Below are positions 1-11,010 of a stretch of DNA of 34,916 nucleotides, in pieces. Both the position numbers and the translations under genes were made by a program. Positions within the stretch are counted from its first letter, which is position 1. Each line of letters starts with the position of its first letter. The stretch is from Pseudomonadota bacterium (GTDB taxonomy: Bacteria > Pseudomonadota > Alphaproteobacteria > Rhodobacterales > Rhodobacteraceae). Location of the stretch: contig JBCCTH010000001.1 of assembly GCA_039198835.1 (NCBI GenBank), positions 1-34,916 on the forward strand, in the 5' to 3' direction. The notes beneath the pieces are model-generated. The model ran no database searches. It had not been told where the DNA came from and saw only the letters and a program-made list of their open reading frames with translations.

Positions 1-261
1 GGCGACCGTGGCGCAAGAGGACCCAAAGGCGAAATAGGCGATCGCGGCGAGCAGGGCGAGAAAGGTGAGCGCGGAGAGCGCGGGCCCAAGGGCGAAAAAG
101 GTGATCGCGGCGAGAAAGGCGAACAAGGCGATCGCGGCGAGAAGGGTGAAAAGGGCGATAAGGGTGACACCGGACCGCGCGGACCCAAAGGCGATAAGGG
201 CGATAAGGGTGACAAGGGCGATAAAGGCGCGCCCGGCATGCCCGGAATGCCCGGCATGGGC
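1..261 (+). repeat. 9-bp-period coding repeat (Gly-X-Y collagen triplets), including GDK x4 at 190-225
   Basis: GGN codon every 9 nt; ggcgataag-type units in tandem. Confidence 0.9.
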
Positions 262-822
262 GGTGGCAAGAACATCGATATCGACATCGACATCGATGTG
301 GACTTTGACGTCGATGTCGCCATCAACCGCGGCGGTGGCCATTGCTATGGCGGCGGCGGCGTGAAGGGCGGCTCGGCAGATTTCGGTAGCGTGATGCAGA
401 AGATCACCTCTGAGATCAACGAGCTCATCGAGCAGCTGAAAGCCGCGATCTCGCAGATCATCACCAAGTTCCTGGAGCAGATCCAAGGCATCATGGATTC
501 CATGAAAGGTATGAACCAGATGGGTTATACCTACATGGGCAACATGGGCGCCATGGGCGGCGGGCATGATTGCAACACAGCCGCCGACAAGAAGCAGGCG
601 CTGATCGACTCCATGAAGAAAGAGATGGGCGGCACGGCCGACTCCATGCCTGACATGATGGCCGGTTCCATGAACCAGATTCAGGGCATGATGGTCAGCT
701 ACGCTCAGCGTCCGACAGATATGGGGGCCACGGATCTGCGCAAAGGCGCGGACGCCGTTCTCGATCAGCTTGGCCGCGATCTCATCGCCAAGGCGGAATG
801 GCAGCTCAAGACCGCAGCCTAA
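1..822 (+). CDS. Collagen-like (Gly-X-Y repeat) protein with Met/Gly-rich C-terminal region, 5'-partial; T3SS-associated
   Basis: Frame 1 is open from base 1 and reads [21 protein letters not shown]...[15 protein letters not shown], about 28-29 uninterrupted triplets. It continues in frame into track ORF 238..822 ([15 protein letters not shown], an amphipathic helix, a Met-rich tail). The true start lies upstream of the window. Confidence 0.85.
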
Positions 823-942: not shown

Positions 943-1119
943 ATGGCTCAAGTAAATCAGGCTGGTGCAAACCAGGATATCCAGGGCTCGGAAGAAAACC
1001 AGGAAGCGCTCGAGCAGCGTTTTCAGGACCTCTACGTCGCGATGATGGAAAAGAAAGTGTCGTTCAAGGAGGCCACAGAGCCCTTCCGGACCGACAACGA
1101 GAACTCCTCGAAGGGCTAA
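943..1119 (+). CDS. Small 58-aa T3SS-associated protein; candidate needle/pilus subunit
   Basis: Strong RBS AGGAGA 931-936, ATG 943; MAQVNQAGANQDIQGSEENQEALEQRFQDLYVAMMEKKVSFKEATEPFRTDNENSSKG; lies just before sctV and is flanked by hairpins. Function inferred from size and position only. Confidence 0.7.
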   Translation: MAQVNQAGANQDIQGSEENQEALEQRFQDLYVAMMEKKVSFKEATEPFRTDNENSSKG

Positions 1120-1228: not shown

Positions 1229-3331
1229 ATGCGTAAGGATATTGCGCTTATCCTGTTGATCCTCGCGATCCTCGCGTTGATCGTCGTGCCCCTCGGCCCG
1301 ACGATGCTCGATATATTGCTGTCGGTGAACCTGACGCTCTCGGTCTTGCTGTTGATCGTGGCGGTTTACCTTAAGCATCCGGCGGATTTTCCGACATTCC
1401 CGACTGTCATCCTGCTGGGCACTGCCTTCAGGCTGGCGCTTTCGATCTCGACGACCCGTCAGATTCTTTCAGAAGCGGAAGCGGGCGAAATCATCGAGAC
1501 GTTCGGGACCTTCGTGATCGGCGGGAACATCGCCATTGGTCTCATCGTCTTTCTGATCATCACGGTCTTCCAGTTCCTCGTCGTCACCAAAGGCGCGGAG
1601 CGGGTCGCCGAGGTCAGCGCGCGTTTCGCGCTTGATGCGCTTCCCGGCAAACAGATGTCGATCGATGCGGATCTGCGCGCGGAGGCGATCGACAAGCAGA
1701 CCGCTCAAGAGCGCCGTGAAGCGCTTGCCCGTGAAAGCCAGTTCTTCGGGGCGATGGACGGCGCGATGAAGTTCGTCAAAGGCGATGCCATCGCGGGCCT
1801 GATCATCATCTTCATCAACCTGATCGGCGGCATCTCGGTGGGGATGCTCGTTCTTGGGTTCACCTTCGAGGATGCTGTCGCCACCTACACGCTCCTGACG
1901 CTCGGCGACGGCCTTGTCGCGCAGCTTCCAGCGCTTCTGATGGCGCTTTGCGCGGGTATCGTGACGACCCGGGTCGATAGCACCGAGAACATCGATTTGG
2001 GCTCGGACATCTGGCGCGATCTCGCGAGCGACCCCCGCGTGCCAGCCGCCGCGGCGGGGATCGTTGTGCTTATCGGCCTGGTGCCGGGCTTTCCTTTTGT
2101 GAATTTCGCGGTGGGGGCGGGTGTTCTCCTCTTTGTCTCCTTCTCGATGCGCCAGGTCATCGCGGCGCAAGACCGCAAACTCGCTGAAGCGCCGCCCCTC
2201 GCTGAAGACCCGATGCAAGAGGCCGAGGAAGAAAGTGCCCCGGCTCCGGCGATCAATGAAGGCGTGCGCTCTGATCGGATCGTTTTGCGTATCGGCGATG
2301 AGCTCGCGAGCGAGCTCAACCTCATGCAGCTCGACACGACCGTTCAATCTTTCCTCGCGCGCTATGATCAGACCCGCGGTCTGGCCTTTGACCCCCCTTT
2401 CATCGATATCACGACCCGCAGTGGCCGGCATGGGCGGCTTTTTGAAGTCGTGCTCGATGAAGTGCCTGTTGCGTCCGAGACGATCCCCGAGAACTCTCTC
2501 CTTTTGCGGTGTGATGCGTCGCTGCTTGATGCGCTCGGGTGCGACCCCGACGATGTCAAACGCGTGCGCTGGCATGAATTCGACGGATATTTCGCGCCAC
2601 GCGAGGTTTGGCAGGGCGCGGTTGACGCGCAGCTCACGCCGATCCTCGTGGAAGAGCACATCGCCACGGTTGTGTTCCGGGTGTTTGAAACGAATGTGGG
2701 TGTTCTTTTCAGCGAAGATCACTTCAACCGGTTCCTCGAGCAACTCGCGCGGACATCGCCCCGCCAGCAAGCGCAGCTTGAGGCGCAATCTGACCGCACG
2801 ATCTTCTTCCAGACCCTGCGCTATCTCGCCGAAGATGGTGTGCCGCTGCGCCCGGTGCCGTTCATTGTCGATACCTATCTGACCTGGGTCCAGACCCATG
2901 GAAATGTGGGCGCGCTTGAGCTTTCAGAATACATGCGCGGCTCTCTCAAGCGTCAGATCTGTCATGCCATGGTCGGATCTCGCGACATGCTTGGCGTGGT
3001 TTTGCTTGATCCGGCGATCGAGAGCTACGCGCGCAATGCGGTGATCGAAACCGAAGGGGCCGACAGCCCCGCGGGCAGCGATGGCTTGCCGCTCGCGCCC
3101 CATATCTCCGAAGGCCTTCTGGGCCAGTTTCGCAAGCTCATATCTGGGCTGAGCGCGGATGATCCGTTCCCGGTCGTGATCGCTTCATCGAATATTAGGC
3201 GCAGATTGCGCAATTATCTCTCGGCCAATCGCATCGCGCTGCCTGTCATGGCACCGCACGAGCTTTCGCCCGAAGTCAATGTCCACCCCATCGCCCGGTT
3301 CCGCATGCCGGACATGGATGAGGCGTATTAA
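1229..3331 (+). CDS. sctV: T3SS major export gate protein SctV (LcrD/HrcV/FlhA family)
   Basis: N-terminal TM helices; FHIPEP motifs GAERVAEVSARFALDALPGKQMSIDADL and FFGAMDGAMKFVKGDAIAG; large cytoplasmic domain. Confidence 0.95.
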   Translation: MRKDIALILLILAILALIVVPLGPTMLDILLSVNLTLSVLLLIVAVYLKHPADFPTFPTVILLGTAFRLALSISTTRQILSEAEAGEIIETFGTFVIGGNIAIGLIVFLIITVFQFLVVTKGAERVAEVSARFALDALPGKQMSIDADLRAEAIDKQTAQERREALARESQFFGAMDGAMKFVKGDAIAGLIIIFINLIGGISVGMLVLGFTFEDAVATYTLLTLGDGLVAQLPALLMALCAGIVTTRVDSTENIDLGSDIWRDLASDPRVPAAAAGIVVLIGLVPGFPFVNFAVGAGVLLFVSFSMRQVIAAQDRKLAEAPPLAEDPMQEAEEESAPAPAINEGVRSDRIVLRIGDELASELNLMQLDTTVQSFLARYDQTRGLAFDPPFIDITTRSGRHGRLFEVVLDEVPVASETIPENSLLLRCDASLLDALGCDPDDVKRVRWHEFDGYFAPREVWQGAVDAQLTPILVEEHIATVVFRVFETNVGVLFSEDHFNRFLEQLARTSPRQQAQLEAQSDRTIFFQTLRYLAEDGVPLRPVPFIVDTYLTWVQTHGNVGALELSEYMRGSLKRQICHAMVGSRDMLGVVLLDPAIESYARNAVIETEGADSPAGSDGLPLAPHISEGLLGQFRKLISGLSADDPFPVVIASSNIRRRLRNYLSANRIALPVMAPHELSPEVNVHPIARFRMPDMDEAY

Positions 3332-3344
3332 GGAGGATCACCCA

Positions 3345-4091
3345 ATGCAGTGGTTGCGATCCAAACTGCTTTTGCTTTGCACTCTTTTCGCCCTCGCCGG
3401 CTGTCAGGAGGTGCTCTATTCCGAGCTGTCAGAAGAGGACGCCAACGAGATGGTGGCGCTCCTCGTGCTTTCGGGCATCCCGGCGAGCCGCCAAAACGAT
3501 GCGGGATCAGGATATTCGGTCCTCGTGGAGGAGGCCGATATCGCTGTGGCGGTCACTGTTCTCAAGAATTCCGGTCTGCCGCGCGCCAAGTTTGCCTCCA
3601 TGGGCGAGATTTTCGGCGATGTCGGCGTCGTGGGGACACCGTTTGAGGAGCGCGTGCGCTTTGCCTATGCGACAAATCAAGAGCTTTCGAACACCATTTC
3701 GCAGATCAAGGGTGTCGATAATGCGCGTGTCCATGTCGTGATCCCCGAGAAAAAGCGCTTCGGGTCCACGGATGAGCCCGCGTCTGCCTCGGTTGCGATC
3801 TTCCATGACCGCAGCTTTGAGCCGTCAAGCTATTCGCCGCGGATCAAGACGCTGATCGCCTTCGCCGTGCCTGATCTGGCGATTGAGAACATCTCGCTAA
3901 GTTTCTTTTTGTCGCCGGGCTTTGTGGTTCAGCCGCAGCTTGAAGCAGAGACAGCGCCCGGCGCGGCCATGGCGCAAGGGTATAACCTGCCCGGCGGACC
4001 GGCCGCTTTTCCCTTCTTCGGGGCGCTCCTTTTTCTCGTGCTTCTTTTCGTCGTGCGCCTTGTGATGCTCGCATGGCGCAGGGTCGGCTGA
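3345..4091 (+). CDS. sctJ: T3SS inner-membrane ring lipoprotein SctJ (YscJ/HrcJ)
   Basis: RBS AGGAGG 3331-3336, ATG 3345; lipobox LAGC; LYSELSEEDANEM, GLPR, ELSNTISQIKGVDNARVHV, SASV motifs; C-terminal TM helix; 248 aa, much shorter than FliF. Confidence 0.93.
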   Translation: MQWLRSKLLLLCTLFALAGCQEVLYSELSEEDANEMVALLVLSGIPASRQNDAGSGYSVLVEEADIAVAVTVLKNSGLPRAKFASMGEIFGDVGVVGTPFEERVRFAYATNQELSNTISQIKGVDNARVHVVIPEKKRFGSTDEPASASVAIFHDRSFEPSSYSPRIKTLIAFAVPDLAIENISLSFFLSPGFVVQPQLEAETAPGAAMAQGYNLPGGPAAFPFFGALLFLVLLFVVRLVMLAWRRVG

Positions 4092-4094
4092 CCC

Positions 4095-4718
4095 TTGGCT
4101 GAGGCGCAAACATATCCGTCGCTCAAGCGGTTTCTCGCGCCGAGCCTGGCTGATATCGGCTCAAAGCAGCGCGAGACCTTCGCCAATAGCTTTGGTGATG
4201 CCGCGCTGGGCCTTGCGATCCTGGAAAACAGACGCCTTGAGGAGCGGGTGCTCGAGCAGATCGTCAATAGTGAGTCCGCGCTTGACGCAAAGCAAATTGA
4301 GGGCACGCAAGACGCCGTTGTGATCGAGCTTCTCATGGCGCGTTCTGTGGCCGAACTTGAGCTTCTGATGGGCATGGTCTGGCATAAGCTGACCGTTCTT
4401 GACTGGCTCACCTGGGGGCGTTTGGGGCTTATGCTTCCGGGCGTTGATGGGGTTATCGCACGGATTGCCGTGAGCGCCGTTGATGCTAAAGCGCGCGCGG
4501 ATGCAGGCGCGCCCAACGAAGCGCTTGCAGATCTGCCGCCAAGCCATTTGCGCGAGGATGGCGCGCTCCTTTTGGCCTCGTGGATGGCGTCGCTGTCGCC
4601 CGAGCTTGCCGCCCGGCTTCAGCTCTTCGCCGCGATCGAACCGGGCCACCCCGATGATCGCTTCGCCCGGCTGGTGCAGATTTCAGCGCAGGCGCTTTAT
4701 GCGGCGGGGGCTTCCTGA
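4095..4718 (+). CDS. Hypothetical T3SS protein in the SctK position
   Basis: 207-aa helical ORF filling the gap between sctJ and sctL; TTG start; stop overlaps the sctL start (TGATG). Assignment by synteny only. Confidence 0.6.
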   Translation: MAEAQTYPSLKRFLAPSLADIGSKQRETFANSFGDAALGLAILENRRLEERVLEQIVNSESALDAKQIEGTQDAVVIELLMARSVAELELLMGMVWHKLTVLDWLTWGRLGLMLPGVDGVIARIAVSAVDAKARADAGAPNEALADLPPSHLREDGALLLASWMASLSPELAARLQLFAAIEPGHPDDRFARLVQISAQALYAAGAS

Positions 4719-5389
4719 TGGCGTTTGATAGCGCGGCTCCGATCCGCATCCACAAGGCAACGCTTCTGACCGCGAATGAATACGCCGCCCGGCAAGCCGA
4801 GGCGGAAGACATTCGCGTGGCCAAGTCAGAGGCCGAGCGCATCACGGAGGCCGCTCAGGCAGAGGCCGCCCGGATCGTCGCCGATGCCCAGGCGCGCGCC
4901 GATGAACTGGATGCCGAGATGCGGCGGATCGCCGATCAGGAGCTCGGACGCTTCGTTGAAACCCACGCCATCGACGAAGCCGCGCGCGCCGTGCAGCAAG
5001 TGCTCGAGACCTCAAGCGCGATGAAAAGTGATTTTGACGCGCTGGGGCCATGGTTCTCGGACTTCGTCGAGACCGCGCTCGAACGGATCACCGGTGAATT
5101 GCCCAAGCGCAAGCTTTGGGCGGGCATTATCCGGGAAGGTCTCAAAGACAGCCGCGAGCGCTGGTCGCTCACGCTGCGCTGCCATCCCAAGCTCGTTGAT
5201 CTGATGAACGAGGTGCTTGAGGAAGATGACAAACTCGCCGAGGCCATCGTCGCCGTTGAAGGCGATCGCGATCTCCCGCGCGAGGCGTGTTATCTCGTGA
5301 GCAAGAAGGGCGTTCTCGATATCTCTGTCAAAACCCAGGTGAAAACGCTCGTGCGCGCCATCGAATACATGACCGAGACGCCGCAATGA
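4718..5389 (+). CDS. sctL: T3SS stator SctL (HrpE/YscL/FliH family)
   Basis: Ala-rich coiled coil (AERITEAAQAEAARIVADAQARA); C-terminal LRCHP...GDRDL...CYLVSKKGVLDISV; directly precedes the ATPase. Confidence 0.85.
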   Translation: MAFDSAAPIRIHKATLLTANEYAARQAEAEDIRVAKSEAERITEAAQAEAARIVADAQARADELDAEMRRIADQELGRFVETHAIDEAARAVQQVLETSSAMKSDFDALGPWFSDFVETALERITGELPKRKLWAGIIREGLKDSRERWSLTLRCHPKLVDLMNEVLEEDDKLAEAIVAVEGDRDLPREACYLVSKKGVLDISVKTQVKTLVRAIEYMTETPQ

Positions 5390-6714
5390 CCCTCCCGCTC
5401 CATCTCCAGGAGCGCGCGGCGGCGCTCACCGGCCTAAGGGAGCGTTTGGGCGAGATGACGCTGGCAGAGCCGTTCGGCACGGTCGTGGATGTCAAAGGGC
5501 CGCTGGCGCGTGTGGCCGCGCCTGATTTCCGCGTCGGAGAGATGTGCGAGTTTCTCATGCCCGCCGGTCGCGCGCTTCTGGGCGAAGTCATCGGTCTTCA
5601 GGGTGATTTCACATTGGTGACCCCGCTCGGCCCCATAGAGGGGATCGGGCAGGGGACGATGGTCCGAAAGCGCAGCGAAGGGTTTACCATTCCGTTTTCG
5701 TCGGCGCTGCTCGGCCGCATGGTGACCGGCCTTGGCGAGGTGGTGGGCGAGCCGCTGGACGGGCCTGTGAAACGTGTCCCCGTGAAAGCCGCGCCGCCTG
5801 AGCCAGCCGACCGCGCGCCCATCGATACAGCGCTTCCCACCGGATTGCGCGTCATTGACGGGTGCATGACCCTTGCCCGAGGTCAGCGCGTTGCGGTCAT
5901 CGGCCCGCCTGGCGCGGGGAAATCGACGCTCCTTGCCGCCATCACCGCCCATTCTGATGTCGATGTCGTGGTCTTTGGCCTCATTGGCGAGCGCGGGCGC
6001 GAAATTCAGGAATTCGTCACGCGTAAAATCCCCGACGAGACGCGCCAAAAGCTCGTCGTGGTGGCCGCGCCCGCTGATAAGCCAGCGCTCGAACGGCTTT
6101 ATGCGGCCAATACCGCCACGGCCATCGCCGAGGGGTTCCGCGACCAGGGCAAATCCGTCCTTTTGGTAATTGATTCAATGACGCGGGTTGCCCGCGCCAT
6201 GCGCGAAGTCGGCCTTGCCGCCGGTGAGCCACCCACGCGCCGGGGCTATCCGGCTTCTGTTTTCGCGCAACTTCCAGAACTCATTGAGCGGCCCGGGCCA
6301 GCACCGGTGGGGGAGATCACGGCGATCTACTCGGTGCTGGCCGAGGGAGAGACAAGCTCAGACCCTATCGCCGAGGAAACCCGGTCGCTCGTGGATGGCC
6401 ATATCATCCTCGATGCCAGCATCGCGGCAGGCGGGCGCTACCCCGCCATTAACGTGACCGAGAGCCTGAGCCGCCTTATGGCCGAGGTTGTCGAGGGGCC
6501 GCATCAGCGCATGAATACCGCGATCCGGGCCTGCCTTGCGAAATATGCTGAAATCGAGCTTCTCGTGCAGATCGGCGAATATAGCGCCGGGCAGGACCCG
6601 GAGGCAGATCGCGCGCTCGAACTCTATCCCTATGTGCAAAAGTTCCTAAAGCAGGGCCCGGAAAAGCATGAGTTCGGCGAAACGCTTGAGTGGATGCGGG
6701 AGATGCTGGAATGA
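5386..6714 (+). CDS. sctN: T3SS ATPase SctN (YscN/FliI family)
   Basis: ATGA overlap with the sctL stop; Walker A GPPGAGKST; LIGERGREIQEF; LLVIDSMTRVARA; GEPPTRRGYP; DGHIIL; YPAINVTESLSRLM. Confidence 0.95.
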   Translation: MTLPLHLQERAAALTGLRERLGEMTLAEPFGTVVDVKGPLARVAAPDFRVGEMCEFLMPAGRALLGEVIGLQGDFTLVTPLGPIEGIGQGTMVRKRSEGFTIPFSSALLGRMVTGLGEVVGEPLDGPVKRVPVKAAPPEPADRAPIDTALPTGLRVIDGCMTLARGQRVAVIGPPGAGKSTLLAAITAHSDVDVVVFGLIGERGREIQEFVTRKIPDETRQKLVVVAAPADKPALERLYAANTATAIAEGFRDQGKSVLLVIDSMTRVARAMREVGLAAGEPPTRRGYPASVFAQLPELIERPGPAPVGEITAIYSVLAEGETSSDPIAEETRSLVDGHIILDASIAAGGRYPAINVTESLSRLMAEVVEGPHQRMNTAIRACLAKYAEIELLVQIGEYSAGQDPEADRALELYPYVQKFLKQGPEKHEFGETLEWMREMLE

Positions 6715-7202
6715 GCGGCGCCGTGAAGCTCACCCAGATCCGCGATCTGCGGGCGTTGAAGGTAGACCGGCTCACCGCGCGCGCGATCGATCTGCGCCGC
6801 GCCTTGGTCGCTGCCCAGCGCAATGCCGCAAACATGATCGAGCGCTATCGCGCGCTATGCGCGAGCGAGCCGGAAATGATTGATCGCTTGCTCGATCAAA
6901 CGCTGCGGATCACAGAACCCGCAGCCCGCCTCGCGGCGATGAACCATGCGGTGAACCGCGTGCGCGATGTGCGGGCCCAGGCCTATCGCGAGATGTCGGC
7001 CGCCGAGGCCGCTGTGATGGGCATTGAACAGGACATCAAGGAGACAAGCAGCGCGCTTGCGGAAGCGCAAGCGCATCTCGAGGGCATCGAGCGCGCATGT
7101 CAGGAGGCCGGGCGCAAAGGGCGCGCCCGCGCGGAAGACATCGAAGATGACAACGTCCTCGAAACCTTCGCCGGGCTAAGGGGAACGACCGCATGGGCAT
7201 GA
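6711..7202 (+). CDS. sctO: T3SS stalk protein SctO (YscO/FliJ-like coiled coil)
   Basis: 163-aa charged coiled-coil ORF coupled (ATGA) directly after the ATPase, the canonical position. Confidence 0.7.
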   Translation: MSGAVKLTQIRDLRALKVDRLTARAIDLRRALVAAQRNAANMIERYRALCASEPEMIDRLLDQTLRITEPAARLAAMNHAVNRVRDVRAQAYREMSAAEAAVMGIEQDIKETSSALAEAQAHLEGIERACQEAGRKGRARAEDIEDDNVLETFAGLRGTTAWA

Positions 7203-8236
7203 TCGATATCATCGACATGCGCGGCGGGCGTAGCCAGGCGAAGAAGCCCGTGACGCTCCCAAGCGTCGCGCGCAACGCCGCGGCCCCGCGAGGGGCCGTG
7301 GCGCGGCTCGATATTCGCGGCGAGGTGATCCTCCAGGGGGCAGAGATCGCTTATGAAGCCGCCTATATCGAGCCGCGAACCGCATGCCAGGGCGTTGTGA
7401 TCGATGCTGACATTGGCGGTCTGACTGTCACGCTCGCGCTTGAGGGCGATGCGCTCAGGGCGATCAGGCTTGATCGGCTCGCCGGTCTTTCGCTCAATCC
7501 TGCCTCCATGGCGCTGGCGGTTGAGCACCTTCTGACCTCTGACATCGACTTCTTTGAAGCCGCCAAGGATACCGCGCTCTCGCTGCGCGAGGTGTCACTC
7601 GGCCGGTTTGATACCAGTCAGGCCGTTCTCGCCCTTCGCCTGACCTGGCCCGATGGCACGGGCCTGACAGGCTATGTCTGGTCGCCGGACAATGCCGCGC
7701 TCGCTCGGGCTCTGGCCGAGCGCTTTGAAGCCAAGCGCCGCCCGGAAGCGTCTGGCCCGCGCGTCAGGGCCGCCATCATCGGGCCAATTGCCGAGATCCC
7801 CAGAAAGCGTTTGCGCAAGGTGACGAAGGGGGCTGTCTTTTGCCCTGCGCCCGGCTGGGCAAACCTCGCAGATGAGCTCTTTTTGCTGGTCAAGGGCGAG
7901 CATCTGATCCGCTTGACGCCCCATGGTCATGGCTATGCCACAATGGGAGACGAAACAGACATGCATTCTCTGGGTGGGGGCACCACAGGTGATGACATGA
8001 CAGACACTTCTCGAAAAGGGTCGCTGGCTAATCCCCGTGCCTTGGTGACGGTGGAACTCCATCGCCGTGACATGACCCTGGCCGAACTCAGCGATCTCCA
8101 GAAAGACGATATCCTCGATCTCGATCTTTCCGGCATCGAGACAGTCACGCTCGCGGCGGACGGCAAGCCCTTTGCAAAGGGCAAGCTCGTTCAGCTCGAT
8201 GACGTGCTGGGCGTCATGGTGTCAAAGCTGCTCTGA
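7193..8236 (+). CDS. sctQ: T3SS sorting-platform/C-ring protein SctQ (C-terminal SpoA domain)
   Basis: C-terminal VTVELHRRDMTLAELSDLQKDDILDL...VTLAADGKPFAKGKLVQLDDVLGVMV; precedes sctR; alternative start at 7199. Confidence 0.88.
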   Translation: MGMIDIIDMRGGRSQAKKPVTLPSVARNAAAPRGAVARLDIRGEVILQGAEIAYEAAYIEPRTACQGVVIDADIGGLTVTLALEGDALRAIRLDRLAGLSLNPASMALAVEHLLTSDIDFFEAAKDTALSLREVSLGRFDTSQAVLALRLTWPDGTGLTGYVWSPDNAALARALAERFEAKRRPEASGPRVRAAIIGPIAEIPRKRLRKVTKGAVFCPAPGWANLADELFLLVKGEHLIRLTPHGHGYATMGDETDMHSLGGGTTGDDMTDTSRKGSLANPRALVTVELHRRDMTLAELSDLQKDDILDLDLSGIETVTLAADGKPFAKGKLVQLDDVLGVMVSKLL

Positions 8237-8247
8237 GCGCGCGGCCC

Positions 8248-8886
8248 ATGGAAAACCTTTCGCCCCTCGTCGTAGGCTATCTGGCCTCCTTTTTTCTCGT
8301 GGCGCTGCTCGCGTTCACGGCGTTCATCAAGGTGTCGGTCGTGTTGATGATCGTGCGCAACGCGATCGGCCTCCAGCAGGTCCCTTCGAACATGATCGTG
8401 ATGGTGCTGGCGCTCTTTTTGTCGAGCTTCATCGCGCTTCCATCGATTGTCGCGGCGTTTGACGCCATCGAGGCCCTTGGCCCGCTTGAAAACTCAGCCG
8501 ATGCGCTGGTTGCGATCTGGACAGCAGGCCTCGCCCCGTTTCAGAGCTTCATTTCGCAGCATACAGACCCCCAGCATCTGGGCTTTTTCGTGGAAGTCGC
8601 GGGCGAGGTTTGGGAAGGGTCGGGCGTGACCGCCTCGCCTGACATGGCGATCATCCAAGTGCCCGCTTTCGTGCTCACGGAGCTGACGGCGGCGTTTGAG
8701 TTCGGCTTCCTGCTTTATCTGCCCTTCGTTGCCATCGATCTGGCTGTGACGGCGATCCTGATCGCGCTGGGCATGCAGCTTGTGCAGCCGACGATCATCT
8801 CGGTGCCGTTCAAGATCCTGCTCTTCGTGGCGGTTGATGGCTGGGCGCGTTTGGTGGAGGGTCTCATGCTCTCCTATACGGTGTGA
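8248..8886 (+). CDS. sctR: T3SS export apparatus SctR (YscR/FliP family)
   Basis: TAFIKVSVVLMIVRNAIGLQQVPSN; PAFVLTEL; GFLLYLPFVAIDL; ISVPFKILLFVAVDGW; 212 aa without the N-terminal signal extension of FliP. Confidence 0.95.
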   Translation: MENLSPLVVGYLASFFLVALLAFTAFIKVSVVLMIVRNAIGLQQVPSNMIVMVLALFLSSFIALPSIVAAFDAIEALGPLENSADALVAIWTAGLAPFQSFISQHTDPQHLGFFVEVAGEVWEGSGVTASPDMAIIQVPAFVLTELTAAFEFGFLLYLPFVAIDLAVTAILIALGMQLVQPTIISVPFKILLFVAVDGWARLVEGLMLSYTV

Positions 8887-8890
8887 ACCG

Positions 8891-9151
8891 ATGGAGGCTT
8901 ATGTTCAGTCGCTCGTTCAGTTCATGGCAGCGGTGGCGGTTCTTGCCGGTATCCCGTTGGCGGTGGCGACATGTGTCGGCCTGATCGTCAGCTTCTTTCA
9001 GGCCGTCACGCAAATCCAGGATCAGACGCTCGCGCAGACAGCGAAGATCGTCGCCATCGCTTTCACGTTTATCATTTTGGGGGGCGCGCTCATCGCGCCG
9101 CTCCTTGAAGGCACAACGCATCTCTTCGAGACATTCTGGCAAAGGCAATAG
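8891..9151 (+). CDS. sctS: T3SS export apparatus SctS (YscS/FliQ family)
   Basis: 86 aa from ATG 8891; VGLIVSFFQAVTQIQDQTL motif. Confidence 0.93.
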   Translation: MEAYVQSLVQFMAAVAVLAGIPLAVATCVGLIVSFFQAVTQIQDQTLAQTAKIVAIAFTFIILGGALIAPLLEGTTHLFETFWQRQ

Positions 9152-9160
9152 GGGGCGGGC

Positions 9161-9973
9161 TTGGATCAGTTCATCGCCACGCTTCTTGAATTGCCGATCG
9201 CTGCGTCGTTCTTTCTACTCTTGGCGGGCGTGTCGCGGGCGCTGGGCGCGATCTTCGGGCTTTGGGGGCTCTACTTCATCCTCGGCCCTGCGGTGATCGT
9301 GCGGACTGTTCTGGCGCTCATTCTCTCGGCCCCGATGATATTCGCGCAGATCGACAGCTATGTTGCGCTCAGCGAGGAAACCCAGCGCTTCGCGCTTCTC
9401 ACCATCCCGCTGCGCGAATTCATCATCGGCTTCGCCATTGGTCTTCTGATGTCGCTCCCATTTTTCGCGATCATGGGCGCGGCTCTCGTGATCGAGCAAT
9501 ATCGCGGAGATTTCAGCCCTGGCATAGAGGCCCCCGAAAATGCGCAGGTGGGCTCATACGGCGCGCTCAATATGATCATGGTGCTCTTCATTTTCGTAGA
9601 GCTTGGCGGTTTCATGATCCTCGTGGCGACGCTCTATGACAGCTACGCGCTCATTGAGCCGGGCGTGCCGGGGTTGAGCTTTCCGGCCGGTTTTTCTGCT
9701 GCGCTGGCGGGCATATTGCAGAATGTTTTCGTGACACTCATCGCGTTTGCTTTGCCTGTCCTTTTGCTTCTGATGTTGCTCGAATTCGCGATCAACATGG
9801 CCTCGCGCCTGGCCGACCAGATCCAACTCCCCTCGATTGATTTTCTCGCCAAGAACCTCGCGCTGCTCTTTGCCATGCCGGTGCTTGTTCTGGCCCTGTC
9901 GCGCGCGATGCAGGCGACGTTTGATAATGCGCCGCCGGTGCTCCCCCTGCTTGCGGAGATCATCGGCCTATGA
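9161..9973 (+). CDS. sctT: T3SS export apparatus SctT (YscT/FliR family)
   Basis: Hydrophobic 270 aa, TTG start; REFIIGFAIG...GAALVIEQYRG; LYDSY; between sctS and sctU. Confidence 0.88.
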   Translation: MDQFIATLLELPIAASFFLLLAGVSRALGAIFGLWGLYFILGPAVIVRTVLALILSAPMIFAQIDSYVALSEETQRFALLTIPLREFIIGFAIGLLMSLPFFAIMGAALVIEQYRGDFSPGIEAPENAQVGSYGALNMIMVLFIFVELGGFMILVATLYDSYALIEPGVPGLSFPAGFSAALAGILQNVFVTLIAFALPVLLLLMLLEFAINMASRLADQIQLPSIDFLAKNLALLFAMPVLVLALSRAMQATFDNAPPVLPLLAEIIGL

Positions 9974-11010
9974 GCGAAGACCAAAGCGAAGAAAAGACCG
10001 ACCCAGCCTCAGAGCGAAAGCTCAGGAAGCTGCGCGAGGATGCGATTATCCCCACGAGCCAGATGGGCACGAACTTCGTCGGCTTCGCGGCGGGTTTCGG
10101 AGTCTTACTCCTGCTCTTGCGGCAGATGATCGATGCGCTGGCTGACGGCTTTGATACCGCTTTCGCTTCGCTCAACTCAGAGGCCGCCAATGACGAAGGG
10201 CTGGTCTGGTATTTTCTGATCGAGATACATTCGCCAGTGGCCATGGTCATGCTCGCCGTCCTCGGCGCGGGCATCCTGTTTCGCATTCTGGTGAACAAGG
10301 GCTTTGTCTTCTCGCTCAAACAGGTGAGCCCGTCGCTCGACAAAGTGAACCCGGTGACAGGCTTCAAGAACCTCTTCAAGGGCCGCACCTTGACCGAATT
10401 TGCCGCGACGCTCACGCGGTTTTTGGTCCTTTTGGGGACGTTCGGTTATCTGGCGTGGTTCTGGTGGCCCACCTTGGCCAACCTTGATCTCTGCTCGCCC
10501 GCCTGCGCGCTGCCAGTGGCCTGGGACATCACCAAAGCGATCCTCATCGCGACGGCGGCTTTGCTTCTGGTATCGGTGGCTTTTGATGTCGGCATCCAGC
10601 AGGCGTTTTTCCTGATGGAGCACCGGATGACGAAGACCGAGGTCAAAAAGGAACTCAAAGAGATGCTGGGCCAGCCTGAAGTGCGCCAGGAGCGCAACCG
10701 TCTGCGCCGCGACAGCGCGGCGATGGCGGGCTCAGTCGGCGTGGCGGCGGCGACGGTCTATTTCCATTATGGCGATCGCGTCGTCGCGCTGGCGTTTGAT
10801 CCGATCAAAAACCCTCTCCCCAAGATCGCGGCAAAGAGCCGGGAGGCGCGACGCACCATCGAGATCCTCCAGGATCTCAACGGGCGCGGCGTGCCTGGCA
10901 TGGAAGATGAACAGATCGTTGAGGCCTGCGAACTCGTGCCAAATGGCAGCCCAGTACCGCGCGCGATCTTCGCGCCGTTGGCAACGCGCCTGCGCTATCT
11001 GTTGGGATAA
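9970..11010 (+). CDS. sctU: T3SS export switch protein SctU (YscU/FlhB family), lacking NPTH
   Basis: SEEKTDPASERKLRKLRE; KVNPVTGFKNLF; RMTKTEVKKELKEMLGQPEVR; VALAFDP..PLPKIAAK; ATGA overlap with sctT. Confidence 0.93.
   Translation: MSEDQSEEKTDPASERKLRKLREDAIIPTSQMGTNFVGFAAGFGVLLLLLRQMIDALADGFDTAFASLNSEAANDEGLVWYFLIEIHSPVAMVMLAVLGAGILFRILVNKGFVFSLKQVSPSLDKVNPVTGFKNLFKGRTLTEFAATLTRFLVLLGTFGYLAWFWWPTLANLDLCSPACALPVAWDITKAILIATAALLLVSVAFDVGIQQAFFLMEHRMTKTEVKKELKEMLGQPEVRQERNRLRRDSAAMAGSVGVAAATVYFHYGDRVVALAFDPIKNPLPKIAAKSREARRTIEILQDLNGRGVPGMEDEQIVEACELVPNGSPVPRAIFAPLATRLRYLLG

What the first reader, a model, noticed from the sequence alone, without database searches (positions are those of the whole stretch)
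10750..10800. SctU has lost the NPTH autocleavage motif
Seen: where FlhB/YscU read A-x-V-V-x-x-N-P-T-H-x-A-V-A-L-x-Y, this protein reads ATVYFHYGDRVVALAFD (residues 261-277), one residue shorter, with no Asn-Pro, inside an intact 346-aa ORF. Established: Asn cyclisation at NPTH cleaves SctU/FlhB and is linked to substrate-specificity switching; the motif is very highly conserved. Inference: a naturally uncleavable SctU, implying no switch or a different switch mechanism. The later NP in KNPLP aligns with the usual (T/D)-P-L-P surface segment and is probably not a substitute.
Basis: partly seen in the sequence, partly recalled or inferred. Interest (0 to 1): 0.85.

Follow-up and report, generated by a model that had tools for sequence, protein, structure and literature searches.

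The report
Injectisome lineage lacking SctU self-cleavage site
The export-gate protein SctU of this marine bacterium's type III secretion cluster lacks the NPTH self-cutting site, as does SctU of the working legume-symbiont systems it is related to, so this whole branch of injection machines likely secretes without the textbook cut-and-switch step.

Summary
Observation confirmed. The intact 346-aa SctU (9970-11010) reads ATVYFHYGDRVVALAFD where FlhB/YscU read NPTH, one residue shorter. Two public assemblies agree. It is neither decay nor special to this strain. All 17 close homologues (43-99% identical) lack the motif. So do RhcU of Sinorhizobium fredii NGR234, Mesorhizobium japonicum, Rhizobium etli and Ensifer. 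Trees put the window protein in one clade with them, and the best tree needs one loss plus one partial regain. The fold is predicted intact, with a tight hairpin replacing the cleavable turn. The ruler SctP and gatekeeper SctW were not found, while positive controls rang. Best reading: SctU is kept as a structural gate subunit in a lineage that dropped the SctP/SctU switch. Non-cleavage and lack of a switch are inferred, not shown. Ten literature searches found no statement that RhcU lacks NPTH; paywalled reviews were not searchable. This Rhodobacterales sub-clade also has RhcC1 but no own RhcC2 secretin. The claim is testable in tractable rhizobia.

The parts
9970..11010 (+). sctU (RhcU-like), 346 aa, intact, last gene of the operon
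   Evidence: PF01312 E 3.8e-49; best NCBIfam TIGR01404 154 bits, below its 358 cut-off; only FlhB/SctU match in the genome
10750..10800 (+). beta1-turn-beta2 hairpin (residues 261-277) replacing NPTH; H266 at the Asn position, G268-D269 two-residue turn
   Evidence: DSSP of the AF2 model: strand 263-267, strand 270-277; G268 in 13 of 17 and D269 in 14 of 17 rows
10807..10821 (+). KNPLP surface segment; Asn not conserved, so not a substitute cleavage site
   Evidence: N in 2 of 17 rows, P-L-P in 17 of 17
10300..10377 (+). gate loop region (residues 111-136), equivalent by alignment to the FlhB loop that wraps the export gate; strongly conserved
   Evidence: G111, P121, P128, G131 invariant and F136 nearly invariant in 17 rows; role of the loop from PMC7064499
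10492..10506 (+). C175-xxx-C179 cysteine pair typical of the NPTH-less lineage
   Evidence: 114 of 116 NP-less rows against 17 of 67 NP rows
1..822 (+). C-terminal half of a collagen-like (G-X-Y) ORF; its N-terminal half ends contig C8, which carries sctD, a TPR-like ORF and rhcC1
   Evidence: PF01391; full-length 735 and 784 aa homologues at the same place in G053 and G204
943..1119 (+). small conserved ORF (58 aa from the second Met); pilin candidate by size and position only
   Evidence: 49-64% identical in G204 and G053; no Pfam match; alignment by eye
1229..3331 (+). sctV
   Evidence: PF00771; TIGR01399 best
3279..4091 (+). sctJ
   Evidence: TIGR02544 above cut-off
4095..4718 (+). ORF at the nolU/sctK position
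   Evidence: position only; BLAST to NGR234 NolU not significant, E 0.16; conserved in G053 and G204
4718..5389 (+). sctL
   Evidence: TIGR02499 E 7e-17, below cut-off
5287..6714 (+). sctN ATPase (likely start ATG near 5386)
   Evidence: TIGR02546 best, TIGR01026 above cut-off
6690..7202 (+). sctO-like ORF, overlapping sctQ: no room for sctP
   Evidence: position; conserved in G204 and G159; sctN-to-sctR gap 1534 bp
7193..8236 (+). sctQ
   Evidence: PF01052, TIGR02551 E 9e-15
8248..9973 (+). sctR (8248-8886), sctS (8885-9151), sctT (9161-9973)
   Evidence: PF00813, PF01313, PF01311; NCBIfam

Best explanation
This SctU lacks the NPTH motif and is likely a non-cleaving, structural export-gate subunit of a Rhizobiales-type type III secretion lineage that likely lost the SctP/SctU substrate switch long ago. 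Shown: the motif is gone, the gene is intact and conserved, the loss is shared with RhcU of rhizobia, and no sctP or sctW is found. Predicted: the cytoplasmic domain keeps the SctU-C fold, with a short Gly-Asp hairpin where others have the Asn-Pro cleavage turn; with His at the Asn position, Asn cyclisation cannot occur there. Inferred: the membrane part still wraps and gates SctRST. With no ruler to stop filament growth and no gatekeeper, pilus subunits and cargo would be exported without the early-to-late switch, through a pilus of unregulated length, controlled mainly by gene expression.
For: 17 of 17 close homologues lack NP. 116 of 183 homologues lack NP, in a sample enriched for this lineage. 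NGR234 RhcU reads ATLVYRGTAVLIGLRY; R. etli Mim1, M. japonicum, Ensifer, Paracoccus and two Yoonia proteins also lack it, while Hrp2-type and Desulfovibrio-type SctU keep it. NGR234 and M. loti systems secrete proteins and NGR234 makes NopA/B/X pili (PMC3973906 passages; PMC4311626 listing abstract). Trees without the motif columns join the window with these RhcU: 34-row clade SH-aLRT 97; 39-row clade 95 and 2 label changes against 19.6 for shuffles. AF2 model pLDDT 87; best matches are SctU-C structures, Z 15.3, rmsd 1.6 over 90 residues. SctP models TIGR02514 and PF09483 hit 0 of 6 genomes and 0 of 4 Rhc plasmids, while the control plasmids rang (1 of 2 and 2 of 2). The four PF02120 hits lie next to flgD, so are flagellar FliK. 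HrpJ/SctW: 0 of 3 genomes, positive control rang. The sctN-sctR gap is 1527-1685 bp in 13 of 13 NP-less loci and 2362 bp in the one comparable NP-bearing T3SS locus. Absence of sctP in all Rhc groups is published (PMC3574062; PMC3973906). Cluster-wide pN/pS 0.19 (25 synonymous, 14 non-synonymous); sctU dN 0.41-0.58 with dS 1.7 to saturated.
Against: No biochemical test of cleavage or of secretion order. In Salmonella and Xanthomonas the non-cleaving Asn mutants fail to secrete translocators and effectors, so compensating changes must exist and were not identified. 4 of 17 close rows have Asn at the equivalent position (NYGD) and 2 lineage members read NPG, so residual cleavage in some members is not excluded. 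Divergent SctP/SctW analogues could escape the HMMs; two ORFs of the cluster (127 and 137 aa, on C8) have no assignment. G000 is 93.8% complete in 329 contigs. The link between NPTH loss and sctP loss rests on essentially one evolutionary event, so it is not a statistical correlation. No own secretin and no NopX homologue were found in this sub-clade, so that this particular system injects host cells is not shown.
Confidence: 0.68

Rival explanations
1. The switch is retained but works without cleavage: the uncleaved SctU-C already has, or can reach, the switch-competent conformation and responds to a lineage-specific ruler or gatekeeper with no detectable homology.
For: Cleavage only licenses a conformation and is not the trigger (PMC4620466; PMC6140923). 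The cytoplasmic domain is not decaying: 58% mean identity against 46% for the membrane part, and 66% in the hairpin. NopX is modelled at the pilus tip, which suggests some order. Unassigned ORFs lie in the cluster.
Against: No T3S4 or gatekeeper domain found, with controls ringing. No gene fits between sctO and sctQ. The hairpin residues vary freely across the wider lineage. A shorter closed hairpin suggests less flexibility, not more (inference).
Confidence: 0.2
2. The protein still gets cut, at another site or by another chemistry (Asp269, Asn281 or a host protease).
For: D269 is present in 14 of 17 close rows; some relatives keep Asn or NPG at the site.
Against: N281 is in 2 of 17 rows only. 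The wider lineage has no shared Asn or Asp in the turn: 16 of 116 rows have any Asn there. NGR234 RhcU has neither in the turn.
Confidence: 0.07
3. The cluster is a decaying relic or an assembly error, and the motif was lost by drift in this strain.
For: No own secretin, no NopX homologue; 0 of 14 same-genus genomes carry the system; in G204 the cluster is split, with transposases beside one break.
Against: All core ORFs are intact; two assemblies agree; purifying selection; the loss predates the strain by a wide margin.
Confidence: 0.05

Closest known systems
RhcU (y4yO) of the Rhc-I T3SS of Sinorhizobium fredii NGR234 (pNGR234a, WP_010875099.1) and Mesorhizobium japonicum MAFF303099 (BAB52658.1 cluster member P0190)
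   Same: No NPTH, 14-residue hairpin, CxxxC pair, about 345 aa, gene order J-(nolU)-L-N-O-Q-R-S-T-U, no sctP, RhcC1 and SctD/Y4yQ present, same SctU clade
   Different: Only about 30% identical. The window's sub-clade has sctV directly before sctJ, a collagen-like gene and a small ORF upstream, no own RhcC2/CpaD pilotin gene pair and no NopX found; marine Rhodobacterales host
Rhc-II/-III systems (Ensifer plasmid pD; P. syringae T3SS-2; R. etli Rhc-III)
   Same: NPTH-less SctU in Ensifer (P. syringae HrcIIU itself not examined); no sctP; for Rhc-III only rhcC1 was identified (PMC3574062)
   Different: Rhc-II has its own RhcC2 in the cluster; Rhc-II/-III carry hrpK-like translocator genes, not found here with the NopX query
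Canonical SctU/FlhB (YscU, EscU, SpaS, HrcU, FlhB)
   Same: Same Pfam family and predicted cytoplasmic fold; conserved gate loop
   Different: NPTH and its one extra residue are missing; partners SctP and SctW not found
Laboratory non-cleaving mutants YscU N263A/D, EscU N262A/D and P263A, SpaS N258A, HrcU N264A
   Same: Unbroken cytoplasmic domain; these are the top structural matches, which is expected because they are single chains covering more of the model
   Different: Those mutants are stuck in early secretion; the natural RhcU systems secrete effectors

Membership tests
FlhB/SctU (Bac_export_2) | Full-length match to PF01312 | tested here: met
   168 bits, cut-off 24.4, positions 1-334 of 335
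FlhB/SctU (Bac_export_2) | SctU-C fold | tested here: met
   predicted model; Z 15.3, rmsd 1.6 over 90 residues to 3t7y
Canonical autocleaving SctU switch protein | NPTH motif in the beta1-beta2 turn | tested here: not met
Canonical autocleaving SctU switch protein | Score above the NCBIfam SctU equivalog cut-off (TIGR01404) | tested here: not met
   154 bits against 358
Canonical autocleaving SctU switch protein | Self-cleavage of the folded domain | not testable with these tools
   needs protein biochemistry
Flagellar FlhB | Flagellar gene context (flagellin, FlgD, FliK) | tested here: not met
   none found in G000, 93.8% complete; neighbours score best to injectisome models
Rhizobiales-type (Rhc) T3SS | SctU groups with RhcU in a tree | tested here: met
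   SH-aLRT 97; 92 for the same 34 rows and 95 for 39 rows; quick trees, one gene
Rhizobiales-type (Rhc) T3SS | Core order J-nolU-L-N-O-Q-R-S-T-U without sctP | tested here: met
Rhizobiales-type (Rhc) T3SS | No SctW gatekeeper | tested here: met
   PF07201 not found in G000, G204, G053; control plasmid rang
Rhizobiales-type (Rhc) T3SS | RhcC1/NolW secretin N-terminal piece | tested here: met
   on contig C8; 25% to NGR234 NolW, E 9e-7; orthologues E 1e-11 to 5e-13 to Ensifer RhcC1
Rhizobiales-type (Rhc) T3SS | SctD/Y4yQ | tested here: inconclusive
   C8 ORF matches PF16697 E 2.8e-4 and PF23893 E 1.2e-3, both under cut-off; G053 orthologue hits Y4yQ E 4e-8
Rhc-I / Rhc-II subgroups | A dedicated Tad-derived secretin RhcC2 | tested here: not met
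   one secretin only in each of 5 of 5 genomes; it lies in the Tad locus in the 4 checked (G000, G204, G053, G079); G204 is one complete contig. Hence not filed under Rhc-I or Rhc-II
Rhc-I / Rhc-II / Rhc-III subgroups | NopX/HrpK-like translocator | tested here: inconclusive
   not found with the NopX query in 6 of 6 genomes; also missed on the Ensifer and Paracoccus plasmids
Rhc-I subgroup | TtsI regulator and tts boxes; NopA/NopB | not tested
   no search made

The most novel reading that the evidence does not exclude
A whole injectisome lineage, including the working rhizobial symbiotic T3SS, delivers effectors with an uncleaved SctU and with no ruler or gatekeeper, so SctU autocleavage is not a universal requirement but part of a dispensable SctP/SctU/SctW switch module. 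Within it, this marine Rhodobacterales branch keeps only RhcC1 and borrows the cell's Tad-pilus secretin, a living intermediate of the secretin swap that produced RhcC2, and exports a collagen-like filament or adhesin.
Probability: 0.35. Interest if true: 0.82.

Novelty: new variant of a known kind. Interest (0 to 1): 0.6.

Why it matters
Reviews treat NPTH autocleavage as conserved and required for the early-to-late switch, while its purpose is debated. Natural, effector-delivering systems without it, in genetically tractable non-pathogens, are a ready experiment on what cleavage is for. It also warns against calling NPTH-less sctU genes pseudogenes. The interest is lowered because the sequences have been public for decades, the absence of SctP in rhizobia is published, and the NPTH loss may be noted in papers outside the searchable library.

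Tried and rejected
Assembly error or strain decay: rejected. KNPLP as substitute site: rejected. Backup FlhB in the genome: none found. The single-protein scan of genome contigs gave one NPTH-bearing FlhB locus and no close orthologue. The metagenome scan gave 80 loci, none above 38% identity; 60 of 77 scorable ones lack NP. Same-genus genomes: 0 of 14 carry the system, so no close DNA for a site-level dN/dS. The first HrpJ search had no ringing control and was repeated with one. No RNA holder was listed: no evidence on expression either way. ORF 4095-4718 against NolU: not significant. The Atlas look-up of the small ORF did not complete. The careful tree did not finish; quick trees are reported; no AU test was run. 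Roseobacter spinae as product of this system: no link in the passages read (PMC3517982). A marine-bacteria survey lists no T3SS for the roseobacters in its table (PMC2702493 passages). Literature searches for the NPTH loss in rhizobia found no statement: 0 papers hold both 'rhcU' and 'NPTH'; 0 of 40 listed papers, of 1,263 matching, hold 'NPTH'. Supplements searched without a hit: PMC3574062, 7 files; PMC3459982, 5 picture-only files not searchable. No complex prediction was run.

Full report
Observation. The ORF at 9970-11010 is an intact 346-aa FlhB/SctU-family protein. It ends an operon sctV-J-(orf)-L-N-O-Q-R-S-T-U whose genes score best to injectisome models. At 10750-10800 it reads ATVYFHYGDRVVALAFD. 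Against Salmonella-type FlhB, H266-Y267-G268-D269 stand for N-P-T-H with one residue deleted just before; the range end-points of the structural alignments give the same register. Contigs of two marine metagenome runs (one study, possibly the source) cover the gene with 3 differences each, no gaps and none listed in the motif. It is the only FlhB/SctU match in the genome, which shows no flagellin, FlgD or FliK (93.8% complete). The host is likely a Rhodobacterales member: window RecQ is 72.7% identical to Pseudorhodobacter and under 48% to the other listed hits.

Is the loss strain-specific? No. The protein search gave 17 full-length close homologues aligned beside the window protein (43-99% identical; the fused P0012 was left out), and all lack Asn-Pro. 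In that clade the hairpin is better conserved (66%) than the membrane region (46%), G268 and D269 are kept in 13 and 14 of 17 rows, and the Asn of KNPLP occurs in only 2 of 17. Four rows have Asn at the H266 position, followed by Tyr. Among 40 listed differences between the window and the two runs, 25 are synonymous, 14 non-synonymous and 1 intergenic, pN/pS 0.19. Between four orthologous sctU genes dN is 0.41-0.58 and dS 1.7 to saturated.

How far does it reach? Of 183 homologues from two searches, 116 lack NP; the sample is enriched by a profile seeded with this clade, so this is not a frequency. Named members without the motif: RhcU of S. fredii NGR234 pNGR234a, R. etli Mim1, Ensifer adhaerens, Paracoccus sp. 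TOH, M. japonicum (BAB52658 cluster) and two Yoonia proteins. Mycetohabitans and Nitratidesulfovibrio SctU keep NPTH. A Vreelandella cluster also falls in the NP-less set. Trees of 64 chosen rows, motif columns removed, rooted on 7 FlhB-like rows, put the window with these RhcU (SH-aLRT 97). The mixture-model tree needs 2 changes, one loss and one regain of NPG in two rows, against 19.6 for shuffled labels; the branch holding all 40 NP-less rows has support 84. The simpler model needs 3 changes. Both are quick single-gene trees. In the host family, 15 of 29 scorable top loci from a search of 400 genomes lack NP; G159, G053 and G204 belong to the close clade.

Structure. AlphaFold2 on residues 211-346 with 76 aligned sequences gave pLDDT 87, with strand 263-267, a two-residue turn and strand 270-277. 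Foldseek and VIA-align match it to YscU, EscU, CT091 and FlhB C-domains (best Z 15.3, rmsd 1.6, 90 residues). That uncleaved mutants rank first reflects chain coverage and is not evidence on cleavage. The gate-loop residues G111, P121, P128, G131 are invariant in the clade; this loop is essential for secretion in FlhB (PMC7064499, passages).

Switch partners. sctO overlaps sctQ, leaving no room for sctP. The sctN-sctR gap is 1534 bp here, 1527-1685 bp in 13 of 13 NP-less loci, and 2362 bp in the one comparable NP-bearing T3SS locus; two further NP loci with gaps over 7 kb look flagellar. YscP and HpaP models find nothing in 6 genomes and 4 Rhc plasmids, while control plasmids ring. The four FliK-domain hits lie beside flgD. 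HrpJ/SctW is not found in 3 genomes with a ringing control. The absence of sctP from all Rhc groups is published (PMC3574062 passages), and one review suggests such regulation may not be needed in rhizobia (PMC3973906 passages).

Mechanism. Established: cleavage at N|PTH is needed for the switch to translocators and effectors in Salmonella and Xanthomonas, but is unregulated and gives conformational flexibility, not a signal (PMC4620466 abstract and passages; PMC3040844 passages; PMC6140923 passages). NGR234 builds NopA/NopB/NopX pili and secretes Nops in culture, and M. loti MAFF303099 has a functional T3SS (PMC4311626, start of abstract in listing). Both do so with an NPTH-less RhcU. Inferred: the lineage dropped the SctP/SctU/SctW switch module and kept SctU as gate subunit (0.68). 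Rivals: a cleavage-independent switch with unrecognised partners (0.20), cleavage elsewhere (0.07), relic or error (0.05). Against the best reading: no experiment, no identified compensating change, residual Asn or NPG in some relatives, and only one evolutionary event linking the losses.

The system in this genome. Contig C8 ends inside the collagen-like ORF whose other half opens the window, and carries a 127-aa ORF, an SctD-like ORF, a 137-aa ORF, a TPR-like ORF and rhcC1; the same order is contiguous in G053. That C8 and C1 are adjacent is inferred from this synteny. No rhcC2 lies in the cluster. G000, G204 (complete, one contig), G053, G079 and G159 each hold one secretin, in the Tad locus where checked (4 of 5). 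RhcC2 itself was recruited from Tad loci (PMC3459982 passages), so sharing the Tad secretin is plausible but untested. A precedent for rhcC1 alone is reported for Rhc-III. No NopX homologue was found with that query. I therefore place the system in the Rhc-related lineage by tree and gene order, but not in Rhc-I or Rhc-II.

Novelty. Ten library searches and passage searches in three rhizobial T3SS papers (PMC3574062, PMC3973906, PMC9569860) found no mention that RhcU lacks NPTH. Subscription reviews were not searchable and may state it; five picture-only supplements of PMC3459982 were unreadable. Earlier AI notes of this scan report separate NPTH losses in myxobacterial and planctomycete-related systems; I did not test them. 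Verdict: real, lineage-wide, a new variant of a known kind; interest 0.6.

Noticed in passing
window 1-822 and L164:17858-18377 (G000 C8 end): Collagen-like G-X-Y gene inside the T3SS operon between rhcC1 and sctV, split by the contig break; 735 aa in G053 and 784 aa in G204, those two with EF-hand matches. Possible T3SS substrate, adhesin or filament part.
   Followed up: partly
L020:3615-5027 (G000 C143); G204:C1:3022295: The only secretin in five genomes of this sub-clade and its sister is one gene, in the Tad pilus locus where checked; the T3SS has RhcC1 but no RhcC2. It may borrow the Tad secretin.
   Followed up: partly
window 943-1119: Conserved 58-aa ORF before sctV, about the size of NopA pilin (63-71 aa in PMC3973906); no family match.
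   Followed up: partly
window 10492-10506: CxxxC pair in SctU between the last membrane helices: 114 of 116 NPTH-less rows against 17 of 67 others; possible disulfide.
   Followed up: partly
P0054, P0085: Two SctU proteins inside the NPTH-less clade read NPG at the site: partial regain or retention, useful natural intermediates.
   Followed up: no
G204:C1:2824326 and 1485437-1498710: In the complete genome G204 the sctD half lies about 1.33 Mb from the rest of the cluster; transposase and methyltransferase genes lie beyond the rhcC1 end.
   Followed up: partly
L164:1-12824 (G000 C8): A more than 3200-aa RTX-like repeat protein with a type I secretion ABC transporter and membrane-fusion gene lies just upstream of the T3SS genes (read from ORF translations; no family scan).
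   Followed up: no
G001-G014: 0 of 14 same-genus genomes carry this T3SS, yet its GC and GC3 match the host genome: old acquisition with losses, or a donor of like composition.
   Followed up: partly
L123 (G210): A genome of the same family holds an SctU-like gene with NPVH, so cleavable-type systems seem to occur there too.
   Followed up: no
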